A stretch of 34,588 nucleotides of DNA from a virus. Below, in pieces: positions 26 to 22,438 of this stretch (positions within the stretch are counted from its first letter, which is position 1; each line of letters opens with the position of its first letter). The stretch is taken from the UHGV virus genome UHGV-0091505. One strand, written 5' to 3'. Under the pieces are notes generated by a model that saw nothing but the letters and a program-made list of their open reading frames with translations, had not been told where the DNA came from and ran no database searches. The position numbers and the translations under genes were made by a program.

Positions 26-1426
26 TTAGTCTCCAGGATTCCCGGGGCGGTTCAGACCGCAATAAAATCCTGTTCCTGTACCGTTTGTGTAAAGTGCGTG
101 ACCTTCATGCCCTTGTGAAGCAGTGATATTTTTATGGTATATTCCTCCCACTTTTTGGTTGTCTTTGACTACACCCTTTACACCAAAATCACATGTGTCA
201 AATCTCGCGTATCCTATGCATGCACTTACTCCAGTTAGCCAAATGCCAGTTATGAATCCATAGACTTCAATGTCATTAATATAGAAATCAGAAATGTCCC
301 TTTCTTCATAATAGTTCAACCATACTGGACATCCATAATCTTTCCAGTCTCCAGATGTTACATATGAATATCCAAGGGTATTACTATTAATTACAGTTGT
401 CCTGTCCCCATTATATGTAAACTTCCAATATCCCAACATTTTCACTCGAGGTGTACGAATTTCGAACACTGGATAACCCCACAACAATTGCTCAAAGGTG
501 GCATTATCAGAAATTAGAACCATGTCAGGATTTGGAATTATAATCCACCCAGATATAGTGTATTTTAGATTTCCAAACTCTATTCTCTTTGCTCCACTAT
601 TCAGAGCAGCATTAATTGCTGCCATATCAGCATCGGCATCACCATTTCCTACCGGTCCGAAATCTGCAACAGTAACTGTTTCAGCCATCTTGTCATGGAC
701 TGTCCTTGTAACAGAATTAGAATAAGGTTGCTTAACTGCAACTAAAGCATCCCCCTTCCCATCGGAAGAACTTGCTAACTGAATAAATACATCAGATGCT
801 GATCCAGATGGAGGAATAACAACAATCGCATTACCATCATTATCAAATGCTGGCATCATATTCCGCCGAACTGCTGCTGGAGGTAACTGATTTATTGGCT
901 CTGGAACGCGGAGAGTTCGGCTAAGATTAGAGGATACAATGGTATCTACATAGTTTTTTGTAGCTGCATCCTGAGGGTCGCGTGGGTCTTTCAGATTACG
1001 AATATAGTTATTCAGAGCATTGTACCAGTTAGCAATACTTGACGGCTTGCGCAGTGCCAGGCTAAACCAACTGCGAACATGCTGAATCAGCATCGTTAGC
1101 TTATCAAGCGCATCCTCATGCACCTCGGCAAAGAACTTACCCTGATTGCGCAGATCAGTTTCCTGAGTAACTGGCAGTTCTCGTAATATAGAAATCTGAT
1201 AACCGTTAGCCAATGCCTTCGACAGAATTACATTACCGCCGTTGTACCCTCCCGCACCAGTTACTGTGTAATCAGTATCAAGAGCCAGCACAGCGATATT
1301 TTCATCAAGGTCAACCACCTGAACAACCAGGTCGGATTTGTTGAAAATGCGGAAGGTATACGGAAACGATGTCGTAACGCCGTTGCCGGTGTATTCGTTG
1401 TGGTCAACTTCGGTTGAGACCGTCAT
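26..1426 (-). CDS. tail fibre / tailspike protein
   Basis: 466-aa ORF; N-terminus MTVSTEVDHNEYTGNGVTTSFPYTFRIF is the conserved phage tail-fibre N-terminal anchor motif; mid region ADFGPVGNGDADADMAAINAALNSGA resembles the start of tailspike beta-helix domains; stop TAA at 26-28. Confidence 0.75.
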   Translation of the reverse strand: MTVSTEVDHNEYTGNGVTTSFPYTFRIFNKSDLVVQVVDLDENIAVLALDTDYTVTGAGGYNGGNVILSKALANGYQISILRELPVTQETDLRNQGKFFAEVHEDALDKLTMLIQHVRSWFSLALRKPSSIANWYNALNNYIRNLKDPRDPQDAATKNYVDTIVSSNLSRTLRVPEPINQLPPAAVRRNMMPAFDNDGNAIVVIPPSGSASDVFIQLASSSDGKGDALVAVKQPYSNSVTRTVHDKMAETVTVADFGPVGNGDADADMAAINAALNSGAKRIEFGNLKYTISGWIIIPNPDMVLISDNATFEQLLWGYPVFEIRTPRVKMLGYWKFTYNGDRTTVINSNTLGYSYVTSGDWKDYGCPVWLNYYEERDISDFYINDIEVYGFITGIWLTGVSACIGYARFDTCDFGVKGVVKDNQKVGGIYHKNITASQGHEGHALYTNGTGTGFYCGLNRPGNPGD

Positions 1427-1530
1427 GTTAAATCTCCAGATAGTCGCAGCACCCGTTGCGCCGCATATCTGGTTATTCTATTACCTGAAAAACCATATAT
1501 GGATATATAGCTCATGAATACGGACAGATA

Positions 1531-1545
1531 TTACCTTTCAGGTGA
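1531..1545. promoter_or_regulatory. operator-like site TTACCTTTCAGGTGA (variant of the prophage operator motif)
   Basis: TTACC-N5-GGTGA; same variant class as a site in the cI/cro intergenic region; lies 40 bp upstream of the LexA box. Confidence 0.35.
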
Positions 1546-1582
1546 TTCGCAAAACGTGCTGGATAGCAAACAAATTATTTGC

Positions 1583-1602
1583 TACTGTATAAATATACAG
1601 TT
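1583..1602 (+). promoter_or_regulatory. LexA (SOS) box TACTGTATAAATATACAGTT
   Basis: CTGT-N8-ACAG with AT-only spacer at 1585-1600, flanked TA..TT; about 20 nt upstream of SD GGAGAAG and ATG at 1622. Confidence 0.7.
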
Positions 1603-1621
1603 ATTGCATGGAGAAGATAAG

Positions 1622-1879
1622 ATGCAGCAGTATCACTATCCACTGGAAGACGGATTTACCGAAAGGATTCACACGCCGGGAGGCGTCAGGTCACTGGTGG
1701 AGGGATCGCACTTGATGAAATTACTCCGGGATCTCGATAAGGATGGATTTAATGTCGATGGCCCACTTGCCGAACTGACTGCACTGATTAACTACGTCAC
1801 CAGCTCACAGATGTCTATGCATGATCTGCAAACACATCTCGACTATTGTGCCGAACAATTACGAAAACAAACCAGATAA
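1622..1879 (+). CDS. small SOS-controlled antirepressor-like protein (standalone paralog of the C-terminal domain of the downstream Bro-N antirepressor)
   Basis: ATG at 1622 preceded by GGAGAAG; the track start at 1514 would place the LexA box inside the ORF; translated product aligns with the last ~75 aa of the 2192-2878 protein (PGGVRSLVEGSHLMKLL..LAELTALINYV..DLQTHLDY versus PSGVLGLTENSLLMNLL..AAELTTMFCYI..DIQTHAEY). Confidence 0.55.
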   Translation: MQQYHYPLEDGFTERIHTPGGVRSLVEGSHLMKLLRDLDKDGFNVDGPLAELTALINYVTSSQMSMHDLQTHLDYCAEQLRKQTR

Positions 1880-2036: not shown

Positions 2037-2191
2037 TTATGTGTAAAGCGCACCTATTCTATGGTGGGCTGTGTGGGGGCACCGAAAGGTGCGCCGGGTC
2101 CTTTGTAGCCGGTTACGCCAACCCTGCACAGTTCACCACCAACCGATTGGCGTCGGTAGTGGTGATTAACCTAACTACAAAGGTGATCACT

Positions 2192-2878
2192 ATGACTGCT
2201 AACGTAACCCCATCTGTTTTTCATTTTGAATCAGAAGCAACCATTCGAGCCATTGTTATTGATGGAAATCCCTGGTTTGTTGCCAAAGACGTTATTAAAG
2301 CTCTTCAACTGACAAACCCGACTATGTCAATAAAATCTCTTGATGATGATGAAAGGGCTAAATTTAACTTAGGCCGTCAAGGCGAAACCAATATTATCAA
2401 CGAGTCAGGCCTCTACACACTGATCCTCCGCTGCCGCGACGCAGTGACACCAGGCACTATCCCCTACCGCTTTCGTAAATGGGTTACAGGTGAGGTACTT
2501 CCTCAGATCCGCCGCACCGGAAGTTACATTAAAAACTCGCTCTCGCAGGAAGAACGGATAAAGATGGTTGCCGACCAGGTAGCCAACGCCACGGCGTCAG
2601 CAGTGATGCAGGCGATGAAGATAGAGAACAAAACCTACAACGCCCCACTGAAGCCCGGCTACCGCAGCCTGATACATTCTCCGTCTGGTGTTCTCGGCCT
2701 GACGGAGAACTCACTGCTGATGAATCTGCTGAACCAGTTACAGGAAGACGGGCACGATGTATCTGGCGCGGCAGCGGAGCTGACCACCATGTTCTGCTAC
2801 ATCGTCGGTGTGAGCAAATGCCTGCGTGATATCCAGACACACGCGGAGTACATCAACGACAAGGCTGGGTTCTTCTGA
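2192..2878 (+). CDS. phage antirepressor, Bro-N domain family (Ant-like)
   Basis: ATG at 2192 with SD AAAGGTGA; N-terminal region FHFESEATIRAIVIDGNPWFVAKDVIKALQL..ESGLYTLILRCRD is a Bro-N/antirepressor signature; C-terminal domain is paralogous to ORF 1622-1879. Confidence 0.8.
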   Translation: MTANVTPSVFHFESEATIRAIVIDGNPWFVAKDVIKALQLTNPTMSIKSLDDDERAKFNLGRQGETNIINESGLYTLILRCRDAVTPGTIPYRFRKWVTGEVLPQIRRTGSYIKNSLSQEERIKMVADQVANATASAVMQAMKIENKTYNAPLKPGYRSLIHSPSGVLGLTENSLLMNLLNQLQEDGHDVSGAAAELTTMFCYIVGVSKCLRDIQTHAEYINDKAGFF

Positions 2879-2924
2879 CGGGCGGCGGTGGCATTCGTTA
2901 AAAACAAGGCCGCGAAAGCGGCCT

Positions 2925-2936
2925 GTGACATGTCAC
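2925..2936. repeat. perfect 12-bp palindrome GTGACATGTCAC (copy 1 of 3)
   Basis: Directly follows an 18-bp GAAA-tetraloop hairpin (AGGCCGC-GAAA-GCGGCCT, 2907-2924) downstream of the antirepressor stop. Confidence 0.6.
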
Positions 2937-2943
2937 GCTCACG

Positions 2944-3084
2944 TTATGACAAGCCTATGTACCCTGCTACACCAGATAATATCAAAATAGCTGCAACAGC
3001 AAATTCGCCATCGTCAATGATACATTTACGGTTCATAACGCCAAGTGCAACAAGCGCAAACACAACAAGAATAAAAGCAATCAT
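2944..3084 (-). CDS. small hydrophobic two-segment membrane protein (46 aa), not in the supplied ORF track
   Basis: Hand translation: MIAFILVVFALVALGVMNRKCIIDDGEFAVAAILILSGVAGYIGLS; ATG 10 nt after the stop of the upstream 824-aa gene, same strand. Confidence 0.3.
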   Translation of the reverse strand: MIAFILVVFALVALGVMNRKCIIDDGEFAVAAILILSGVAGYIGLS

Positions 3085-3093
3085 TTCTCATCC

Positions 3094-5568
3094 TTATTGC
3101 GGAGTGACATCCTGTGGTCGCCACCAGTATGTCTGGTTAAACTCTTTCTTCGAACGTTGCTCCATTTTACGCAAATAACCTGGTGAAAAATACTCCTGCA
3201 TCTGGTTAAAGATCATGTGATCGAGAGCCGCCTTTAAGTACCAGAGATTCGCACCTGGCATCAGACCTTTCCCCAGCTTAACCAGATCACCACCAGTCTG
3301 CTCATTCTTCCCTTCCACAGCATTTAACGGTATGCCCTGAGCAATCTTCACTACGTCATCAACCAGGCCAGCTACCGGGCCAAGCATCGACGCCAGCGCG
3401 CCGCTTCCGTACCTAGTGTGATCTGACAATAAAAAGTCACCGTAAAGGCCAAGACCACCACCTTTCAGTAGAGCACCAAGCCAAAATTTAGCAGCATCTT
3501 CTCCTGTCATCTCGCGAGGATTACGACCAGACGCAAGGTCGTTAAGTTGCTGCGACAAAGCGCCAAGAATGGTCGTACTGGCAATAAACGTCGCAATATA
3601 TGCCGCACGCCCACCAGCAGACGGCATACCCATAGCGCGTGACCAGTGACGCATAACCACCGAGATAGGGAACGATTTAAACAGGAAAACACTTCTCGTT
3701 AATTCACCTTTCCATGTCCCACGCTGAATACCAGAACCGGTTATCAGTTGCTCACGTGCGCCAGGTGTAATAACAGCCATATCAACTTCTTCAGTTACGG
3801 CACCGAGCAGTTTACGCATTGCCTCAAATTTCACGCGTTCAGGCTCACCAAGATGTTTAACTACTGAATCAGGGATACGCATAATGCTTTCCGGTGTTAG
3901 CATCGTATTATTACCGTTCCCCCAGTCCTCCTGTTGCGCCAGCTTCCATACACTCCAGTCTGTGTCAGTAATCCCTTTACTTTTCAGGATACGAAAATCA
4001 GAGTCATCGAGGCTACGAAGGTCTGGTGTCCGTGACACTACTTCTCCCAGGCTTCCCATCATGGTTACGCCATAGGCGCGCTTGTGCGCATCTGACCATG
4101 CTGTAAGCCCACTGGCACGCATTACCGCCGTTGCCGCCCAACGAGACACAGACGGCCCCATATTATCCATCGCCCAGCGGTTAACGCTGCCAAGTAGAGA
4201 TTCCATCGCCAGACCAGCGCGGCGCGCCCGCGCAAGCTCAGTACGGTTCGTTGGGTCCATAGCTTCAAGCTGGTTGCGGAATAACTGGTTCATTGGAAGG
4301 TTGGTCACCTTCGCAGACAGATACATGGTTCCAAGATCAGAGAACGATGACAGCAACGCGGATCCGAGTCTGCTGGCAACCAGCCAGTTGCGGATATTGT
4401 CAGACCATCGCGCGATGTGAGGATTCGCAACAGGCTGTGTCTTTCCGGAAATAAAGTTGTACAGATTCTCTGTGTTGTTCGCCAGCCGCTCGACTTTACC
4501 GGTTTTACTCGGGTTAGCTGTTGCCGTTTCTGCCTTCACCTGATCAAGAAGGGAACGGAAAACATGATCGGGGTTTGGGCCATATGTTTCCACCAGAGCA
4601 ATATCTTTACTGATCCCTTCCAGGTGACCGACCATGATTTCCCATAGAGAGCGATCGCCATAAAGTTGCTGATATTGCAGATAGGAATCTGCATCTTTGA
4701 AATGTATCTGTCGTGATGCATTACCACGGTTAGCACGTGCACCGGAAATTCGCATTCCGGTATCAGTAAGCTTATTCAGCCCACCAGTAGCGATCGTGTT
4801 ATAAGCCTCTCCAAGAAATGCAGACAACTCGACATCGTTCATCAGTTGTCCATCGGCTCGGGTATAATATTTGCGATCCAGCTTACCTATAACATCGCTA
4901 ACCCATTTATCTTTTGATACCGCCCCAACCTTTCCCATAGAATGATGTTGAGGGATCCCCCAGTTTTCGAGATAGCCAATGTCCCCACCAGCATCATTAA
5001 ACCGGCGGCGCAGTAGCTCTGTCACTTCTCTCCACGCCTTAGCACCTTTTCTTGCTTTAGCATTGCCAGTATTTTGCCCTCGCATTTCATATACCAGGTC
5101 ACGCACGCCCGCTTCATCTTCAAACAGACCAAAAAAGCGAGGATCAACTGCTTCGAATGCCTCCTGCAATTGACTCAATGCATAATCACGGGTGGCTTTT
5201 GTTCTGGATTCAACAGAGAGGAAATTCGATTTACCGTCTGCATTAAAAGCAATAGTACGGTTAAGAGCGCCAAGTTTCCCATCAGCCCCTTGATAGCTAT
5301 TGATAAATTTATCCAATCTCTGACGTGCGGCTATAGTGAGGGCCACACGACGTTTCTTTAATACCGCTTCTCGCTGTAATTCTTCAGATGCCAATTGTGC
5401 TGCACGATATAGCCGCTCTGATTCGGAAAGTTGTCTCCATGACATCGGGTCATCACGAGCAATGGAGCGCATATTTCGATAAATGCGGTCTTCAATGTTC
5501 TGTATTTCTCGCGCCGTTAACGTGCGCTGCGCCGCCTGCTGAACCGCTTGTATACATTCCTGTCTCAT
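3094..5568 (-). CDS. internal virion / ejection protein (large, gp16-like position)
   Basis: 824-aa ORF in the podovirus core-protein block between the tail tubular genes and the tail fibre; glycine-rich hydrophobic stretch near C-terminus; assignment by position and size. Confidence 0.5.
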   Translation of the reverse strand: MRQECIQAVQQAAQRTLTAREIQNIEDRIYRNMRSIARDDPMSWRQLSESERLYRAAQLASEELQREAVLKKRRVALTIAARQRLDKFINSYQGADGKLGALNRTIAFNADGKSNFLSVESRTKATRDYALSQLQEAFEAVDPRFFGLFEDEAGVRDLVYEMRGQNTGNAKARKGAKAWREVTELLRRRFNDAGGDIGYLENWGIPQHHSMGKVGAVSKDKWVSDVIGKLDRKYYTRADGQLMNDVELSAFLGEAYNTIATGGLNKLTDTGMRISGARANRGNASRQIHFKDADSYLQYQQLYGDRSLWEIMVGHLEGISKDIALVETYGPNPDHVFRSLLDQVKAETATANPSKTGKVERLANNTENLYNFISGKTQPVANPHIARWSDNIRNWLVASRLGSALLSSFSDLGTMYLSAKVTNLPMNQLFRNQLEAMDPTNRTELARARRAGLAMESLLGSVNRWAMDNMGPSVSRWAATAVMRASGLTAWSDAHKRAYGVTMMGSLGEVVSRTPDLRSLDDSDFRILKSKGITDTDWSVWKLAQQEDWGNGNNTMLTPESIMRIPDSVVKHLGEPERVKFEAMRKLLGAVTEEVDMAVITPGAREQLITGSGIQRGTWKGELTRSVFLFKSFPISVVMRHWSRAMGMPSAGGRAAYIATFIASTTILGALSQQLNDLASGRNPREMTGEDAAKFWLGALLKGGGLGLYGDFLLSDHTRYGSGALASMLGPVAGLVDDVVKIAQGIPLNAVEGKNEQTGGDLVKLGKGLMPGANLWYLKAALDHMIFNQMQEYFSPGYLRKMEQRSKKEFNQTYWWRPQDVTPQ

Positions 5569-5573
5569 TTAAT

Positions 5574-7376
5574 TTAACCTCTCAAGAAACACGCCACAGC
5601 GACATCAAACAGGCTAGAATCCTGTATTGCCTGCTCACTTTCCCTGTTCGCTTCATCCAGTACTTCACGCGCACTGCGCGATTGTGGATTACCATCATCA
5701 TCCAGCACGGTGATTATCATGTCAGGTGATTCAAGCAGCGAGTCTTCAGCTATACGCAGATCAATATCTCCTGCCGGATCTGCCATCATTTTTTGTTCTG
5801 TCTGTTGCAATATCTTACCGGGCTCAAAAGGAGCTACTTCGTCTGGCGTCCTGACCTCTGCTGTTTTATAGAATGAAACAGCCTGAGCATTAAGTTCACT
5901 TTCTGCCTGCTGTCGTCGTGCCAGTTCTGCTCGAGCTTCAAAAAACTGACCTCCAGGCTCGTGCGGCGCCAACGCGTTACGGGAAAATTCCAGGCGTTCT
6001 TGTGCCTGCCGGATTCGTTGGTCAATATCGCGAATTCTGGCCTGTTTATCTGATCGAGCACGAGACAAAGCTTTACCGCTACCAGTTGGCTCTTCTGCAA
6101 GAATTTGTGCGCGCTGTTCAGTGAGATTGTCGATAATTCGTTGGCTATTAGCGATTTCAGACTGGTAAACCTGTCTATCGCCACGCGACAAAAGCTGCGC
6201 GGCCTGTTCTTCAAGCAACCGATTTTCTATAGCGCGCGCCGTTACTCCATCATCTACAGATGACAGAGCCTCATTAACTGCCTGAGACAGCAGACTCTTG
6301 CGTCCAGGAATTTCACTGAAAGATGCAGACTCAACAATGCTGGCAACGTCTACAGGTCTCCCCTGGCTAACATCAGACATAGCTTTTCGCAGAGCCTGAA
6401 TGTGAGAATTGCGCGAAAGCACGTTGATCGGCACGCCGGGCGCAATATCAATTTCAGCATGATGAGCGGCATTCGCCGCCAGTGCAGCATCAACATCAAC
6501 TGGTGAAAAATTTGGTGCGCTTGTAGACTCGCCGCGAGAGTTCATAAATCTGCCGACACCACCAAACGCTACCCCAAGAACAGCATCAATAGCAATTGCC
6601 TGTCGATCCAACACATCATACTGGTTAGCCATTTCGCTATAGCCACCATCACGAAGAGTTTTTGCAGTAAGCCCACGCTGTGCCATACCGAACGCAATAT
6701 TTGTACCTGCGGCATAGGCAATATCTGGCGTTGCACGTACTGCTGTTGCTGCGGCGCGTCGCACTGAACTTTCACCCGTCCGCGCAAGCTGGGCCGCCAC
6801 ACCTTCCGCCAGCGCACCACCAGCACGTAACCCGAGGCTCATAGGGATCAGTGTTCCGGCACCAGCAGTAATACCCTGCACTAATCCCGCTTCCTGCGCC
6901 GTCCTGAAATCAACACCCTGAGCGGACAGGCGCTCAAATTCAGAGAATCCCTGAAGAGAGGTAACTGCGGCTGCGCCACCAATCGGCCCTGCTAATGCTG
7001 AACCGACAACAGCCTGTCCGCCCATATCGAACAACCCATAAAGAACCTGCCCGGCGGTTCCGGTTGTCGCGGCATCAGGCGTCAACCGCTTAACCTGCTG
7101 CTCTGCTAGTTTTCTCTGCTCGGCAATGTATGAAACTGAAGTATCATTGAACGAGGTGTTTTCGTTAACAAACTGAGCAATCGGGGATACGATTTTATCC
7201 ATTCCTGCCCATAGCAACTGGTCTGGCTTTGCCACCAGCCCGGAGTACAAACCAGACAATGCCGCCCCTACAGCATTGTCGAAAAAACCAACATCGCTGT
7301 TAAAGCCCGCTGGATTTGATGCTGCTTCGTCAAGCTGCTGATTCTGGTTTACTGGATTAAGGCCAAAGTAACTCAT
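5574..7376 (-). CDS. internal virion protein (Gly/Ala-rich, membrane-interacting)
   Basis: 600-aa ORF, translationally coupled to neighbours; long Gly/Ala-rich segments typical of ejection proteins. Confidence 0.5.
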   Translation of the reverse strand: MSYFGLNPVNQNQQLDEAASNPAGFNSDVGFFDNAVGAALSGLYSGLVAKPDQLLWAGMDKIVSPIAQFVNENTSFNDTSVSYIAEQRKLAEQQVKRLTPDAATTGTAGQVLYGLFDMGGQAVVGSALAGPIGGAAAVTSLQGFSEFERLSAQGVDFRTAQEAGLVQGITAGAGTLIPMSLGLRAGGALAEGVAAQLARTGESSVRRAAATAVRATPDIAYAAGTNIAFGMAQRGLTAKTLRDGGYSEMANQYDVLDRQAIAIDAVLGVAFGGVGRFMNSRGESTSAPNFSPVDVDAALAANAAHHAEIDIAPGVPINVLSRNSHIQALRKAMSDVSQGRPVDVASIVESASFSEIPGRKSLLSQAVNEALSSVDDGVTARAIENRLLEEQAAQLLSRGDRQVYQSEIANSQRIIDNLTEQRAQILAEEPTGSGKALSRARSDKQARIRDIDQRIRQAQERLEFSRNALAPHEPGGQFFEARAELARRQQAESELNAQAVSFYKTAEVRTPDEVAPFEPGKILQQTEQKMMADPAGDIDLRIAEDSLLESPDMIITVLDDDGNPQSRSAREVLDEANRESEQAIQDSSLFDVAVACFLRG

Positions 7377-9886
7377 TGCGGAATATCTCCGGAGAATCTC
7401 TGACGCTTCTGTGTCAGATCAAGAACAACAGGAGAACCATCATCTTTCAGCAGATAACCAGTACCAAGTTTCACCAGATACTGACTATCGCCGTAACTTT
7501 GCAAACCATACTGACCAGGCGGTGTTTTTATCCCGGTGCCGACAACTTGTTCATTCCAAGCCTGATTAACCTGCTTATCGAATTGCTCTGCAGACATTCC
7601 CCACGGCAAAAGGACATTCCCCATTCCGTTATAGTCATGCACGCCACCTGTAGCTACGTTAACAGCCTGTTTCCAGATATCAGTGTCAATTTCGCCTGAT
7701 ATCACGCCTTTTTTCGCCATCACACCAGCGTAATAGTCCTTTGCGATCTCGTATGCCATTGATGCCCCCTGAGCATCACCAGCAAATGCATCCTTCACCA
7801 TGTCAGAAAACTCAAGGCGAAGATCAGCATCTTTAGGCATCGGAATACCTTTCGCATCATCAGTACCTTTACGAGCCGCCGCGCCAGCAAGAATTGTCTG
7901 CGCAGCGGTTTCAGGAGACACGGAAACATCCGGATTAAACCAGTTTTTTTCTGCCAAAATACCACCAGGCTTGTCCATCAGTATCCCGGCAACGGCAGCA
8001 GATGGAGCGTTGGCACTGATCTGCTGTAGTGCTGACATATACACCTGCCCACCACCAGTGCTCTGCCTGATGGTATCGAGATATGCTGCCTGTTGGGAAA
8101 CTGGAGCATCACGAAAGAAAACACCGATCTGATTGGCCTCGTCTTTGGAAAAGAACGTCAGTGGAGTGCCATATGACTTAGCAAGGTCACTGACCTGAGC
8201 GGCACGCAAGGCAACGCTCTGTCCAAAGTTATCCTTATTGCTCATGTCGATAGGCTTTGCCTGTCCGGAGGCAAGAGAGAACTGCACAGGATCCGACTGC
8301 CGCTGCTTTATCACCTGATTTGCAGCCGAAACAACGTTGTCATAAAGAGCTGCACGAGACGCATAACCCTCCCCTGTCTCACCAGTATCCGGACGTAATT
8401 GCTCAACATATGCGGTAATGCTGCTTGTCGGCATGTTGCGGAAAGAGCCTATATACTGTCCGGCGATCTGCGTATTTCTGAACTCGGTATATCGCAGGTT
8501 TCCTTCTCTGACGCCATAAGCTGCAATAAAATCAGCCTCACCAGGTGGATTAGGAAATTCAACGCCACGCATATACGCAGCCGTCGCATCGCGAACCTGG
8601 CTGTCAATCATCGTTTTATATTCAGCCTGCTGCTGCCGACGCAGTTGATCCGCCTGTCGCATAAAACTTGCCTGCGCCTCAGGAGATGCCGCATCGAATG
8701 CTGCATTACCGGTATAGCGTTTGGTGTTGGTTGGAATTGTTGATAAACCAAGTGCTGCACTGACACCAGCAGTTAACTGCTGATCACTGTATGGCTGACT
8801 ACCGTTCTCATGATGGATAATGGCTGCACAAAGCGCCTTCAGGGTATCAGGATTTGATGCATCGAGAGGCTCATCAGCAGAAACGCCAAGTTGTTCGCAC
8901 ACTGCTTTGATATACGACATAGTGTCATTTTTATCAGTAGGCGGTGCCCAGCGATTAATTATCTCGCTGACGGTATCGATACCCTGCCGCTGATACGACA
9001 TCAGGTTACGCCCTAATGCACGAATCCCGTGCTCAGGTGTTTCGAATTTAGCAAATCGACCATCATCACCGGTCTGGCCTACCCACGGATTAGTTTTGCT
9101 GTATTCGAGATTTCCTGGGTTATTGTTGCGTATGCCACGGGCACGCTCGGAAGAGTCACTATCTGCTACAGCACGGCGAGCTCCAGCAGCAGTATCACTT
9201 AACTCGCCATTACTTTGGATGAATGCGGTCGCATTGTTTGCCGACCACTGGGACAATGCGGCATCAGCAACCTTCTCTTTAAACTCGATTTTCTTGGCCT
9301 GGATTTGCTCGTCGCTCCAGCCATGCGCAATGCCGTAATCCTCAATTTGCTGGAAAGTTTGCTTATTAGCCAATACGTATGCGGCGTTGTCGCCATACAA
9401 TGCTGCGGCATTTTTACCATTGTTCAGCAGCGTCGCCTGAAACTGGCCTTCTTCGTAGGCATTTATTTGCCCTATCTCGTGCCGCCCGGCCTGCGTAGTG
9501 AACTGAATGCGCTGCTGCTGAGCCTGCTGCATGAAAGCATTACGAGCCTGTTCATCCGGCAGCGACATAGCCAGTTGTTCGACCTGAGCATCAAACTGCT
9601 GCGTATACTCCTGACCTTTTCCAATAGCATTTTTCCCTTTCAGGTTAAGCAAACCTGTTTCAGGGTTATTCAGCAGATCGCTGCTTATCTGGCTTAAGCT
9701 AAGAGAAGCATCCTGAGCCATAGCAACATTCGCGCGCTGTTTTGCCTGCGCAATAATACCTGCATATTGCTCTGCAACATCGCCAAGTACATCACCGACA
9801 TTTGGTGTCTGAAACGATGAGAATCCCTGCGTCGAAATCCCTCTGCTCTGAACCTGACGGCCCGATGTTGTTGGTACAACTGGCAT
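7373..9886 (-). CDS. internal virion protein (gp15-like position)
   Basis: 837-aa ORF in the core-protein block; contains a conserved-looking segment GIRNNNPGNLEYSKTNPWVGQ..FAKFETPEHGIRALGRNL of unknown function. Confidence 0.5.
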   Translation of the reverse strand: MPVVPTTSGRQVQSRGISTQGFSSFQTPNVGDVLGDVAEQYAGIIAQAKQRANVAMAQDASLSLSQISSDLLNNPETGLLNLKGKNAIGKGQEYTQQFDAQVEQLAMSLPDEQARNAFMQQAQQQRIQFTTQAGRHEIGQINAYEEGQFQATLLNNGKNAAALYGDNAAYVLANKQTFQQIEDYGIAHGWSDEQIQAKKIEFKEKVADAALSQWSANNATAFIQSNGELSDTAAGARRAVADSDSSERARGIRNNNPGNLEYSKTNPWVGQTGDDGRFAKFETPEHGIRALGRNLMSYQRQGIDTVSEIINRWAPPTDKNDTMSYIKAVCEQLGVSADEPLDASNPDTLKALCAAIIHHENGSQPYSDQQLTAGVSAALGLSTIPTNTKRYTGNAAFDAASPEAQASFMRQADQLRRQQQAEYKTMIDSQVRDATAAYMRGVEFPNPPGEADFIAAYGVREGNLRYTEFRNTQIAGQYIGSFRNMPTSSITAYVEQLRPDTGETGEGYASRAALYDNVVSAANQVIKQRQSDPVQFSLASGQAKPIDMSNKDNFGQSVALRAAQVSDLAKSYGTPLTFFSKDEANQIGVFFRDAPVSQQAAYLDTIRQSTGGGQVYMSALQQISANAPSAAVAGILMDKPGGILAEKNWFNPDVSVSPETAAQTILAGAAARKGTDDAKGIPMPKDADLRLEFSDMVKDAFAGDAQGASMAYEIAKDYYAGVMAKKGVISGEIDTDIWKQAVNVATGGVHDYNGMGNVLLPWGMSAEQFDKQVNQAWNEQVVGTGIKTPPGQYGLQSYGDSQYLVKLGTGYLLKDDGSPVVLDLTQKRQRFSGDIPQ

Positions 9887-16889: not shown

Positions 16890-17182
16890 TCCTGTTCACT
16901 GGCCTCTTTGGCCATCTTCAAATACTGTTCAGGGCAATGCGCCATAACGCGCTGAAACAGTTCCAGCGCCAGATTGCGTTGCCCCTCATTAAATGCCATT
17001 GCCATAGCGTCCATCGGTGAGATAGCGGAAAACACCAGGCCTTTCTCCAGCACAGACCAGACAACGCGACGCCCCTGTTCACTGCTCATGACAAAGCGAA
17101 TGTCATCAATTTCACGCTGTGCCATGTCACGTTGCTTACGGGCGTTTTCTTCTTTCAGTTGATCATCTTCGTATTCTGTCAT
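16886..17182 (-). CDS. hypothetical protein (between portal and scaffold)
   Basis: 98-aa ORF translationally coupled to the portal and scaffold genes. Confidence 0.45.
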   Translation of the reverse strand: MTEYEDDQLKEENARKQRDMAQREIDDIRFVMSSEQGRRVVWSVLEKGLVFSAISPMDAMAMAFNEGQRNLALELFQRVMAHCPEQYLKMAKEASEQE

Positions 17183-20161: not shown

Positions 20162-20173
20162 GTGACATGTCAC
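20162..20173. repeat. perfect 12-bp palindrome GTGACATGTCAC (copy 2 of 3)
   Basis: 5 nt after the Gp49-like stop, in the convergent gap with terL; followed by a weak hairpin and a T-rich run. Confidence 0.6.
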
Positions 20174-22426: not shown

Positions 22427-22438
22427 GTGACATGTCAC
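22427..22438. repeat. perfect 12-bp palindrome GTGACATGTCAC (copy 3 of 3)
   Basis: Overlaps the stop codon of the 112-aa gene, upstream of the terminator and terS. Confidence 0.6.

What the first reader, a model, noticed from the sequence alone, without database searches (positions are those of the whole stretch)
2944..3084. Unlisted 46-aa two-transmembrane ORF between the last internal virion gene and the antirepressor insertion
A tightly coupled small ORF with two hydrophobic segments follows the 824-aa gene on the same strand. Holins and superinfection-exclusion peptides have this form, and in T7-like phages a holin sits near the tail fibre gene. It is below the ORF-track length cut-off and would be missed by routine annotation.
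Basis: seen in the sequence. Interest (0 to 1): 0.4.

Follow-up and report, generated by a model that had tools for sequence, protein, structure and literature searches.

The report
Small phage membrane protein, swappable cassette
The 46-codon ORF is a real, already-annotated but uncharacterised gene for a tiny inner-membrane hairpin protein in an epsilon15/phiV10-like prophage. It is one of several unrelated envelope-protein cassettes that related phages swap at this spot, and it is very unlikely to be the holin.

Summary
It starts 9 nt after the stop of the 824-aa internal-virion gene, behind an AAGGA ribosome-binding site, and a rho-independent terminator follows it. It is a real gene: pN/pS is about 0.34 across 17 variants, and AlphaFold2 predicts a helical hairpin (pLDDT 92).

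It is not "unlisted". It equals PhiV10p21 ("putative integral membrane protein"), SPN1S_0020, RefSeq WP_000559990.1 and PHROG 7892. All are of unknown function.

The holin reading fails. The protein has no charged C-terminal tail and no holin-family hit. Relatives carry a separate holin-endolysin-spanin cassette beyond the tailspike. Functional relatives lack the gene.

The new point is that the position right after this gene is a variable cargo slot. In 80 near-identical phages it holds at least five unrelated low-GC cassettes: 2-TM peptides, a multi-TM protein and lipoproteins. The slot is bounded on one side by the stop/SD and on the other by a conserved palindrome, GTGACATGTCAC, plus the terminator.

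My best guess, untested, is a dispensable late-expressed inner-membrane accessory protein that works like a superinfection-exclusion or DNA-entry blocker. Interest is low to moderate.

The parts
2944..3084 (-). CDS for the 46-aa two-helix membrane protein (family: PhiV10p21 / SPN1S_0020 / WP_000559990.1 / phrog_7892)
   Evidence: ORF listing. phrog_7892 match over the full length, E 4.7e-32. Annotated homologues. pN/pS 0.34 pooled across variants. AlphaFold2 hairpin, pLDDT 92.3.
3028..3081 (-). Codons 2-19: first hydrophobic helix (IAFILVVFALVALGVMNR)
   Evidence: AlphaFold2 helix 2-19. Kyte-Doolittle 19-residue mean 2.29.
3013..3027 (-). Codons 20-24: short turn (KCIID). It lies within the most conserved stretch of the family, M-N-R-K-G/C-I-I-x-D-G-E-F.
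   Evidence: Alignment A1: I23, D25 and E27 invariant; N18, R19, K20, I22, G26 and F28 at least 90% conserved. AlphaFold2 turn 20-24.
2950..3012 (-). Codons 25-45: second helix, with a small-residue face (S37, G38, A40, G41, G44) in the conserved motif SGVAGYIG
   Evidence: AlphaFold2 helix 25-45. Conservation. Kyte-Doolittle 19-residue mean 2.06.
3085..3096 (-). Junction TAAGGATGAGAA: the stop codon of the 824-aa gene overlapping an AAGGA Shine-Dalgarno, 6 nt before the ATG. This is the left edge of the cargo slot.
   Evidence: Sequence. The TAAGGA junction is kept in 26 of 27 intact copies; the exception reads TAGTGAGGCTAAAATG. It is also kept in front of the B, D and E cassettes, while cassette C follows TAAAAGGAG.
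3094..5568 (-). 824-aa internal-virion / ejection-type protein (epsilon15 gp17 / PhiV10p20 homologue). It is the last large gene of the structural operon.
   Evidence: phrog_684 'virion structural protein', E 0. Annotation in relatives.
2925..2936 (.). 12-bp perfect palindrome GTGACATGTCAC: the right edge of the cargo slot, abutting the terminator
   Evidence: Three exact copies in the window. Present at this position in 78 of 85 loci whatever the cargo, including epsilon15.
2897..2924 (-). Rho-independent terminator of the structural operon (AGGCCGC-TTTC-GCGGCCT followed by TGTTTTTAAC)
   Evidence: Terminator scan. An equivalent terminator is annotated in phiV10 and epsilon15.
2039..2878 (+). 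Convergent Bro-N/Ant antirepressor gene; neighbour, not part of the cassette
   Evidence: phrog_130 'anti-repressor Ant', E 2.4e-57.

Best explanation
The window is an epsilon15/phiV10-like (Uetakevirus) prophage or phage.

Shown:
- The ORF is a real gene and the last cistron of the long structural operon. It is translationally coupled to the 824-aa ejection-type protein and lies just upstream of the operon terminator.
- It encodes a 46-residue helical hairpin with almost no extramembrane mass. The hairpin has a 5-residue charged turn (R19, K20 / D24, D25, E27) and a small-residue face on helix 2.
- It is not part of the conserved virion or lysis machinery. It occupies a cargo slot directly after the ejection-protein gene, bounded by the stop/SD junction on one side and by the palindrome GTGACATGTCAC plus the terminator on the other.
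- In phages with 99-100% identical flanks, that slot holds unrelated, low-GC cassettes. All of them encode envelope-targeted proteins: other small 2-TM peptides, a multi-TM protein, lipoproteins and a secreted protein.

Inferred:
- The protein inserts into the inner membrane, most likely N-out/C-out with the RK turn on the cytoplasmic face.
- It is made late in the lytic cycle together with the ejection proteins.
- It acts by packing its glycine/alanine-rich helix against a membrane partner. The most likely effect is to interfere with the inner-membrane step of DNA delivery by incoming phage of the same kind. That would be an exclusion or 'conduit-immunity' role, working like P22 SieA, T4 Imm or HK97 gp15, but the protein is not a member of those families.
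For: Real gene:
- pN/pS is 0.19-0.48 against the informative diverged copies and 0.34 pooled. One copy (L079) is saturated at synonymous sites (pS 0.91) but has pN of only 0.21.
- The SD is conserved.
- The antisense ORF is interrupted in several relatives.
- The terminator sits after this ORF, not after the 824-aa gene.

Hairpin: AlphaFold2 pLDDT 92.3, helices 2-19 and 25-45; hydropathy.

Fixed position: the gene is always directly after the gp17-type gene, in E. coli, Salmonella, Citrobacter and Morganella. It also holds that position in a distant phage whose gp17 homologue is only 25% identical over about 200 aa, while the small protein remains recognisably conserved (profile E 1.7e-06, shared NRKG-I and GVAGY-G motifs).

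Cargo slot:
- In 80 IMG/VR loci with 94-99% identical gp17, the slot holds B1+B in 36, this family in 25, lipoprotein D in 11, C+E in 7 and E in 1.
- The last 900 nt of gp17 are 99-100% identical between loci with different cargo.
- Slot GC is 0.38-0.43 against 0.49 in the flank.
- Other genera carry lipoproteins, secreted proteins or other 2-TM peptides there.

Dispensable:
- Only 54 of the 461 E. coli complete genomes that match the flanks carry the ORF.
- 4 of 25 copies are frameshifted.
- Phage isolates (phiv142-3, ZX5, epsilon15) lack it.

Exclusion analogy: P22 has the same module order (ejection genes 7/20/16, then the membrane protein SieA, then the ant region, then tailspike, then O-antigen conversion). 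[quoted passage not shown]
Against: - There are no functional data for this family anywhere in the searched literature.
- No sigma70-like promoter precedes the ORF, and the 9-nt coupling leaves no room for one outside the gp17 coding sequence.
- The epsilon15 record annotates repressor operators in front of the structural operons. The gene is therefore probably silent in lysogens, whereas classical exclusion genes such as P22 sieA have their own promoter and are prophage-expressed.
- There is no sequence similarity to SieA (E 19).
- There are no hits in Pfam, PADLOC or NCBIfam.
- A 46-aa hairpin has nothing protruding into the periplasm that could contact a conduit.
- The 'envelope cargo' pattern fits other roles equally well, such as lysis timing or modulation of host transporters.
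Confidence: 0.4

Rival explanations
1. Lysis-related peptide: a holin, antiholin or lysis-timing modulator that accumulates in the inner membrane late in infection.
For: It is a late-operon gene for a two-TM small membrane protein. One alternative occupant of the slot (B, 98 aa) has a sub-threshold match to Phage_holin_5_2 (E 0.027, 15 bits against a cut-off of 29). Another slot occupant, a 92-aa protein in L087 and L097, has two TM segments plus a charged C-terminal tail, which is holin-like architecture.
Against: No charged C-terminal domain; the last charged residue is E27 of 46. No holin-family hit. At 46 aa it is shorter than typical holins (my own knowledge). Relatives have a complete separate cassette of 3-TM protein, DUF754 holin, endolysin and Rz/Rz1 beyond the tailspike. 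The gene is absent or frameshifted in many otherwise near-identical phages.
Confidence: 0.12
2. Ejection or assembly accessory: a small hydrophobic partner of the 824-aa protein, acting either as a chaperone in the producer cell or as a virion-packaged component of the DNA-delivery channel.
For: Translational coupling to gp17 at a fixed 9-10 nt in nearly all copies. In 68 of 80 close relatives and in epsilon15, the first ORF after gp17 is some small hydrophobic peptide: A, B1, C or gp18. Two distant relatives in other bacterial classes also have an unrelated 2-TM ORF there (L102, L103).
Against: These peptides are not homologous to each other (hhalign probability 0.3% for A versus the epsilon15 gp18 family). 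In 12 of 80 loci a lipoprotein follows gp17 directly, with no small peptide. Cargo type does not co-vary with gp17, whose 3' ends are 99-100% identical across types. Several distant relatives have nothing comparable. The low GC suggests foreign cargo.
Confidence: 0.15
3. Other envelope-acting accessory function unrelated to phage entry, for example modulating a host membrane protein or acting as a membrane-depolarising toxin or abortive-infection element.
For: The same cassette evidence applies. The family is more conserved than its neighbour across distant phages, which suggests a conserved host target.
Against: No match to PADLOC defence models. No partner gene or antisense RNA is evident. 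Apparent late-only expression argues against a lysogen-benefit gene.
Confidence: 0.2
4. Chance ORF: a non-coding spacer between the 824-aa gene and its terminator.
For: It is very short and has no domain hit.
Against: The reading frame is intact across E. coli, Salmonella, Citrobacter, Hafnia and Morganella with pN/pS of 0.34 and synonymous saturation in one pair. The SD is conserved. AlphaFold2 is confident. It is the only one of 121 comparable ORFs in the window with two hydrophobic segments.
Confidence: 0.03

Closest known systems
PhiV10p21 (YP_512275.1, 'putative integral membrane protein'), SPN1S_0020, WP_000559990.1; PHROG 7892
   Same: Same family (83-98% identical), same length, and same position after the gp17-type gene and before the terminator.
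   Different: Nothing substantive. The window copy has A32 where most copies have V. None of these entries has an assigned function.
epsilon15 gp18 (NP_848226.1, 64 aa; PHROG 29212)
   Same: Same slot: it overlaps the gp17 stop (ATGA), has two hydrophobic segments, and is followed by the same palindrome and a terminator. It is also narrow in distribution and well conserved within Enterobacteriaceae.
   Different: No detectable homology (hhalign probability 0.3%). It is 18 residues longer and has a different loop motif (KKGWLGE).
P22 SieA (inner-membrane superinfection-exclusion protein)
   Same: A membrane protein encoded immediately after the last ejection-protein gene and before the ant region and tailspike. 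[quoted passage not shown]
   Different: SieA is 162-164 aa with three TM segments. It is on the opposite strand with its own promoter and is expressed from the prophage. There is no sequence similarity (E 19).
Class II holins / pinholins (e.g. phage 21 S21) and the T7 gp17.5-type holin
   Same: Small phage-encoded membrane proteins expressed late; class II holins have two TM segments (my own knowledge).
   Different: No charged C-terminal tail, no dual-start motif, not adjacent to an endolysin gene, and no family hit. A separate holin is already present in relatives.
Morons / accessory cassettes in phage late operons (e.g. HK97 gp15, lambda lom/bor, phi80/N15 cor)
   Same: Present or absent between otherwise identical phages, deviating GC content, envelope-targeted products, dispensable. 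Cor is a receptor-blocking exclusion protein (PMC11436027).
   Different: Classical morons carry their own promoter and terminator (my own knowledge). Here the cassettes borrow the operon's SD and terminator, and no promoter was found.

Membership tests
PHROG 7892 / PhiV10p21 family | Full-length sequence match to the family profile | tested here: met
   E 4.7e-32, residues 1-46 against profile positions 1-46. 83-98% identity to annotated phage copies.
Holins (class II / pinholin type) | One or more TM segments in a small late protein | tested here: met
   Two hydrophobic helices.
Holins (class II / pinholin type) | Hydrophilic, highly charged C-terminal cytoplasmic domain | tested here: not met
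   The protein ends ...GVAGYIGLS. There is no charged residue after E27, and this holds across the family apart from a single terminal K in one member.
Holins (class II / pinholin type) | Gene located in a lysis cassette next to the endolysin or spanin genes | tested here: not met
   The neighbours are the gp17-type gene and ant. In phiV10 and epsilon15 the holin-endolysin-Rz cassette lies beyond the tailspike and O-antigen genes.
Holins (class II / pinholin type) | Match to a curated holin family | tested here: not met
   No Pfam or NCBIfam hit at E up to 1. Its PHROG family has 'unknown function'.
Holins (class II / pinholin type) | Membrane permeabilisation or lethality on expression; required for lysis | not testable with these tools
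   Needs an expression and complementation experiment. Absence of the gene from plaque-forming relatives argues against a requirement.
Inner-membrane superinfection-exclusion proteins (P22 SieA, T4 Imm, HK97 gp15 type) | Inner-membrane location | tested here: inconclusive
   Predicted only: a two-helix hairpin with no signal peptide or lipobox.
Inner-membrane superinfection-exclusion proteins (P22 SieA, T4 Imm, HK97 gp15 type) | Expressed when exclusion is needed (prophage or early), usually from its own promoter | tested here: not met
   No sigma70-like site upstream on the coding strand. The ORF is coupled at 9 nt to a late gene. Repressor operators are annotated ahead of the epsilon15 structural operons. 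Synonymous-site conservation at the gp17 3' end gave no clear sign of an embedded element.
Inner-membrane superinfection-exclusion proteins (P22 SieA, T4 Imm, HK97 gp15 type) | Sequence homology to a characterised exclusion protein | tested here: not met
   Against P22 SieA, E 19. No Pfam or PADLOC hit. T4 Imm and HK97 gp15 were not compared directly.
Inner-membrane superinfection-exclusion proteins (P22 SieA, T4 Imm, HK97 gp15 type) | Blocks DNA entry of the superinfecting phage | not testable with these tools
   Needs plating-efficiency, K+ efflux or DNA-uptake assays.
Moron-type accessory cassette | Variable presence between otherwise near-identical phage genomes | tested here: met
   Five cargo types behind gp17 3' ends that are 99-100% identical. 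54 of 461 E. coli genomes carry this one.
Moron-type accessory cassette | Base composition different from the flanks | tested here: met
   ORF GC 0.39 against 0.49 for the flanking gene and 0.495 for the window.
Moron-type accessory cassette | Own promoter and terminator (an autonomous transcription unit) | tested here: not met
   A terminator is present but it is the operon's. No promoter was found. All cassettes reuse the flank's SD.

The most novel reading that the evidence does not exclude
The position after the last ejection-protein gene of Uetakeviruses may be a dedicated cassette-exchange site. It would be bounded on the left by the stop/SD junction and on the right by the conserved 12-bp palindrome GTGACATGTCAC. 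It would hold a library of non-homologous envelope proteins (2-TM peptides, lipoproteins, secreted proteins), each blocking a different step or competitor during phage entry. In effect this would be an exclusion or defence hotspot embedded in, and expressed with, a structural operon. The palindrome would serve as the recombination anchor or as a control element for the adjacent terminator. On this reading the 46-aa hairpin would be one of the smallest exclusion proteins known.
Probability: 0.15. Interest if true: 0.55.

Novelty: new member of a known kind. Interest (0 to 1): 0.27.

Why it matters
The ORF by itself is an ordinary, already catalogued hypothetical protein. What could matter is the context: a well-delimited slot in a common family of E. 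coli and Salmonella prophages. About 8% of complete E. coli genomes match its flanks. The slot collects unrelated small envelope proteins. If these are exclusion factors, the slot is a ready-made panel of candidates for studying how podophage DNA-delivery conduits are blocked at the inner membrane. It would also be relevant to the phiV10/SPN1S-type phages used as reporters and biocontrol agents. If they are not exclusion factors, the finding remains a minor annotation note.

Tried and rejected
- Remote homology for the 46-aa protein. Pfam, NCBIfam and PADLOC gave nothing. A profile search of 1.8 billion representative proteins gave only 5 hits, all the same family. Foldseek of the AlphaFold2 model against viral structures gave only the family itself; the other hits are generic helical hairpins at E above 1.
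- Homology between the different small peptides in the slot. hhalign of family A against the epsilon15 gp18 family gave probability 0.3%, so this was rejected.
- Function of the neighbouring cargo proteins B, B1, C, D, E and X. Each has a PHROG of unknown function or none, there were no meaningful PDB sequence hits, and one sub-threshold holin_5_2 match was not accepted.
- An internal promoter. The consensus scan found none upstream on the coding strand. Synonymous-site diversity over the last 45 codons of gp17 is somewhat low (0.12-0.16 against a mean of 0.21, window sd 0.056), but equally low values occur elsewhere in the gene, so this is inconclusive.
- The antisense 96-aa ORF (2888..3178, + strand) as the real gene. 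It is interrupted by stop codons in phiV10, L079, L087 and L093, so it was rejected.
- Literature. There is no mention of PhiV10p21, SPN1S_0020, WP_000559990 or phrog_7892, and nothing on epsilon15 gp18.
- TM segments in the 824-aa protein as a putative partner. None reach standard hydropathy thresholds, so I make no such claim.

Full report
**What the window is.** A 700-bp stretch around the finding matches Escherichia phage phiV10 at 98% and Salmonella phage SPN1S at 84%. Both belong to the genus Uetakevirus, the epsilon15-like temperate podophages. The genes upstream of the finding on the minus strand are homologues of epsilon15 gp15, gp16 and gp17:
- 7373..9886, 837 aa, with lytic-transglycosylase-type matches;
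- 5574..7376, 600 aa;
- 3094..5568, 824 aa, phrog_684 'virion structural protein'.

Downstream lie a convergent Bro-N/Ant antirepressor (2039..2878, + strand), a second short ant-related ORF (1514..1879, + strand) and the tailspike gene (26..1426, minus strand).

**Checking the observation.**
- The junction with the 824-aa gene reads TAAGGATGAGAAATG. That is a 9-nt gap, with an AAGGA Shine-Dalgarno overlapping the upstream stop codon and sitting 6 nt before the ATG.
- Twenty nucleotides after the ORF's stop lies a textbook intrinsic terminator, AGGCCGC-TTTC-GCGGCCT followed by TGTTTTT (minus strand 2924..2907). The operon terminator was therefore placed after this ORF, not after the 824-aa gene.
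- The two hydrophobic segments have Kyte-Doolittle 19-residue means of 2.29 and 2.06. All five charged residues sit between them.
- Of 121 ATG-ORFs of 40-70 aa in all six frames of the window, this is the only one with two such segments.

**Is it a real gene?** Yes, on four lines of evidence.
- Conservation. Forty-two clusters of homologues (72-96% identical) occur in E. coli, Salmonella, Citrobacter and Hafnia. An exhaustive profile search added only five more distant members. A species-level genome scan added Morganella.
- Selection. Across 17 distinct intact proteins, pN/pS is 0.19-0.48 against the informative diverged copies of the window's ORF and 0.34 pooled. The most telling pair (L079) has 31 of 34 synonymous sites changed but pN of only 0.21. 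The neighbouring 824-aa gene is much more constrained, with omega of 0.01-0.15, so this peptide is under moderate purifying selection.
- Frame and signals. The SD is retained in nearly all copies. The overlapping antisense ORF (2888..3178, + strand) is broken by stop codons in phiV10 and three other relatives.
- Structure. AlphaFold2, run with the family alignment, predicts a helix-turn-helix hairpin with helices 2-19 and 25-45 and a mean pLDDT of 92.3.

The best-conserved residues are the turn region M-N-R-K-G/C-I-I-x-D-G-E-F and the C-terminal SGVAGYxG, which forms a small-residue face on helix 2.

**It is not unlisted.** The ORF carries these existing labels:
- PhiV10p21, 'putative integral membrane protein; two predicted transmembrane helices';
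- SPN1S_0020;
- 'putative (integral) membrane protein' in SPC32H/N, SPN9TCW and 65FD/66FD;
- WP_000559990.1, 'hypothetical protein', in PGAP-annotated E. coli chromosomes;
- its own PHROG, 7892, of unknown function.

No paper in the searchable library mentions any of these identifiers. The papers I opened on related phages say nothing about it.

**The holin reading fails.**
- The protein ends inside helix 2 and has no charged C-terminal tail.
- It hits no holin family.
- Relatives already carry a complete lysis cassette several kilobases away, beyond the tailspike and the O-antigen-conversion genes. In phiV10 this is p27 (a 3-TM protein), p28 (a DUF754 holin) and p29 (endolysin). In epsilon15 it is gp23, holin, endolysin and Rz/Rz1. 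The window stops at the tailspike gene and so does not reach that cassette.
- Isolated phages of the same genus lack the ORF altogether.

**The locus is a cargo slot.**

I fetched 80 IMG/VR loci whose gp17 homologue is 94-99% identical to the window's and read what follows the stop codon. The occupants are:

| Cargo | Description | Loci |
|---|---|---|
| B1 + B | 57-aa 2-TM ORF (GTG, or TTG in some relatives) at the same start position, followed by a 98-aa multi-TM protein (phrog_3075) | 36 (one without a recognisable B1) |
| A | This 46-aa family. Four copies are frameshifted; one is followed by an extra secreted protein (X) | 25 |
| D | 137-aa lipoprotein, lipobox LISAC (phrog_8691) | 11 |
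| C + E | 41-aa hydrophobic ORF plus a 126-aa lipoprotein, lipobox LVGC (phrog_3716) | 7 |
| E alone | The same 126-aa lipoprotein | 1 |

Further observations on the slot:
- epsilon15 itself carries gp18, an unrelated 64-aa two-TM protein, in the same place. It overlaps the gp17 stop codon. hhalign finds no relationship between its family and this one (probability 0.3%).
- The last 900 nt of gp17 are 99-100% identical between loci with different cargo.
- The cargo is AT-rich: GC 0.38-0.43, against 0.49 for the flank.
- The left boundary is the stop/SD junction.
- The right boundary is a perfect 12-bp palindrome, GTGACATGTCAC, followed by the terminator. The stop codons of several cassettes lie inside the palindrome.
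- Only 54 of the 461 complete E. coli genomes that match the flanks carry the 46-aa ORF.

In a one-genome-per-species scan, the same position holds:
- this family, in Citrobacter braakii and Morganella;
- B1 with B, in Klebsiella, and B1 with a 92-aa 2-TM protein, in Kluyvera;
- a secreted protein, in C. werkmanii and Pseudoxanthomonas;
- lipoproteins, in Pectobacterium and Pantoea;
- unrelated 2-TM ORFs, in two distant relatives;
- nothing comparable, in several distant relatives.

In a very divergent phage (L087), the gp17 homologue shares only 25% identity over about 200 residues, yet the small protein is still clearly recognisable (profile E 1.7e-06, with the NRKG-I and GVAGY-G motifs kept) and is still the last gene before the terminator.

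**What this implies.**
- The ORF is dispensable, exchanged horizontally, and does not co-vary with its own gp17. That argues against an obligatory chaperone or channel subunit for gp17.
- Every occupant of the slot is targeted to the envelope, which points to a function at the cell surface or membranes.
- The nearest worked example is P22. Its annotated map shows ejection genes 7/20/16, then sieA, then the mnt/arc/ant region, then tailspike, then gtrABC, then att/int. This is the same module order as in Uetakeviruses. [quoted passage not shown]
- I therefore favour an exclusion-like role at the inner membrane, with the glycine/alanine face of helix 2 packing against a partner helix. This step is inference only.

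**What weighs against the exclusion reading.**
- sieA is on the opposite strand, has its own promoter and is expressed from the prophage.
- Here there is no promoter-like site and the gene is coupled to a late gene.
- The epsilon15 record annotates repressor operators ahead of the structural operons. Expression is thus probably confined to the lytic cycle.
- A test for an embedded element, using synonymous-site conservation at the gp17 3' end, was inconclusive.
- There is no similarity to SieA.

A lysis-timing role, another host-directed membrane function, or a non-essential ejection accessory all remain open.

**Verdict.** The claim that annotation would miss it is wrong. As a gene it is an ordinary, already catalogued hypothetical. 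The slot and its palindrome boundary are the only moderately interesting aspects.

Noticed in passing
window 2925-2936, 20162-20173 and 22427-22438 (plus a 1-mismatch copy at 17119-17130); epsilon15 L005 7518-7529, L089 2142-2153, L114 about 3113-3124: The perfect 12-bp palindrome GTGACATGTCAC occurs three times exactly in the window, where about 0.002 copies are expected. The three positions are conserved in epsilon15. The first overlaps the TGA stop of a 112-aa 'transcriptional regulator' (phrog_536; epsilon15 gp49), about 25-30 nt before a terminator upstream of terS. The second lies just after terL. The third is at the end of the structural operon, abutting its terminator. It differs from the annotated epsilon15 repressor operator (TTACC-N5-GGTAA). 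It could be a termination or antitermination control site, or a module-junction recombination anchor.
   Followed up: partly
L003 (phiv142-3), minus strand directly after the gp17 homologue; same in L007, L096, L097: A 57-58-aa two-TM ORF, 'B1' (MFLIILSVIISGVLLFIDRYKYFLNPQTQAICWFIFVVQGVVLVASLIEGRPLIFTG), starts with GTG or TTG at exactly the position where the 46-aa ORF starts. It is not annotated in phiv142-3, where a longer overlapping CDS was called instead. It is conserved in Klebsiella and Kluyvera prophages.
   Followed up: partly
L087 5668-5946; L097 about 282 nt after the gp17 stop: A 92-aa protein has two TM segments and a highly charged C-terminal tail (...SLWLKRKKLEEKKRIADLEK). This is holin-like architecture. 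It sits in the same slot in two unrelated hosts, next to family A in one locus and next to B1 in the other.
   Followed up: no
L050; L052 and two identical loci: Frameshifted copies of the 46-aa gene. One is truncated after codon 19, and three have an altered C-terminus from residue 41. This fits a dispensable gene that decays in some prophages.
   Followed up: partly
window 26-1426 (minus strand): The tailspike ORF is only 466 aa, against 875 aa in phiV10 and 1070 aa in epsilon15. Its N-terminal 220-280 residues match the conserved head-binding part. The ORF stops 25 nt from the window edge, so it may be a short or truncated receptor-binding module.
   Followed up: no
window 1514-1879 (+) and 2039-2878 (+): There are two antirepressor-related genes in tandem. 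The 121-aa ORF and the C-terminal 80 residues of the 279-aa Bro-N protein hit the same PHROGs (450, 15539). The C-terminal domain is therefore duplicated; epsilon15 and SPN1S have a single short gp19-type gene here.
   Followed up: no
L006 and six identical loci, first ORF after gp17: The 41-aa ORF 'C' (MMVQITFIVLICAAFLCYSYILIKMGFNWNLCCVQRHGSAL) is followed, in another frame, by a second hydrophobic stretch (AAWFGFVVFGIVLFGRIIK). It may be a frameshifted 2-TM peptide of about 58 aa.
   Followed up: no
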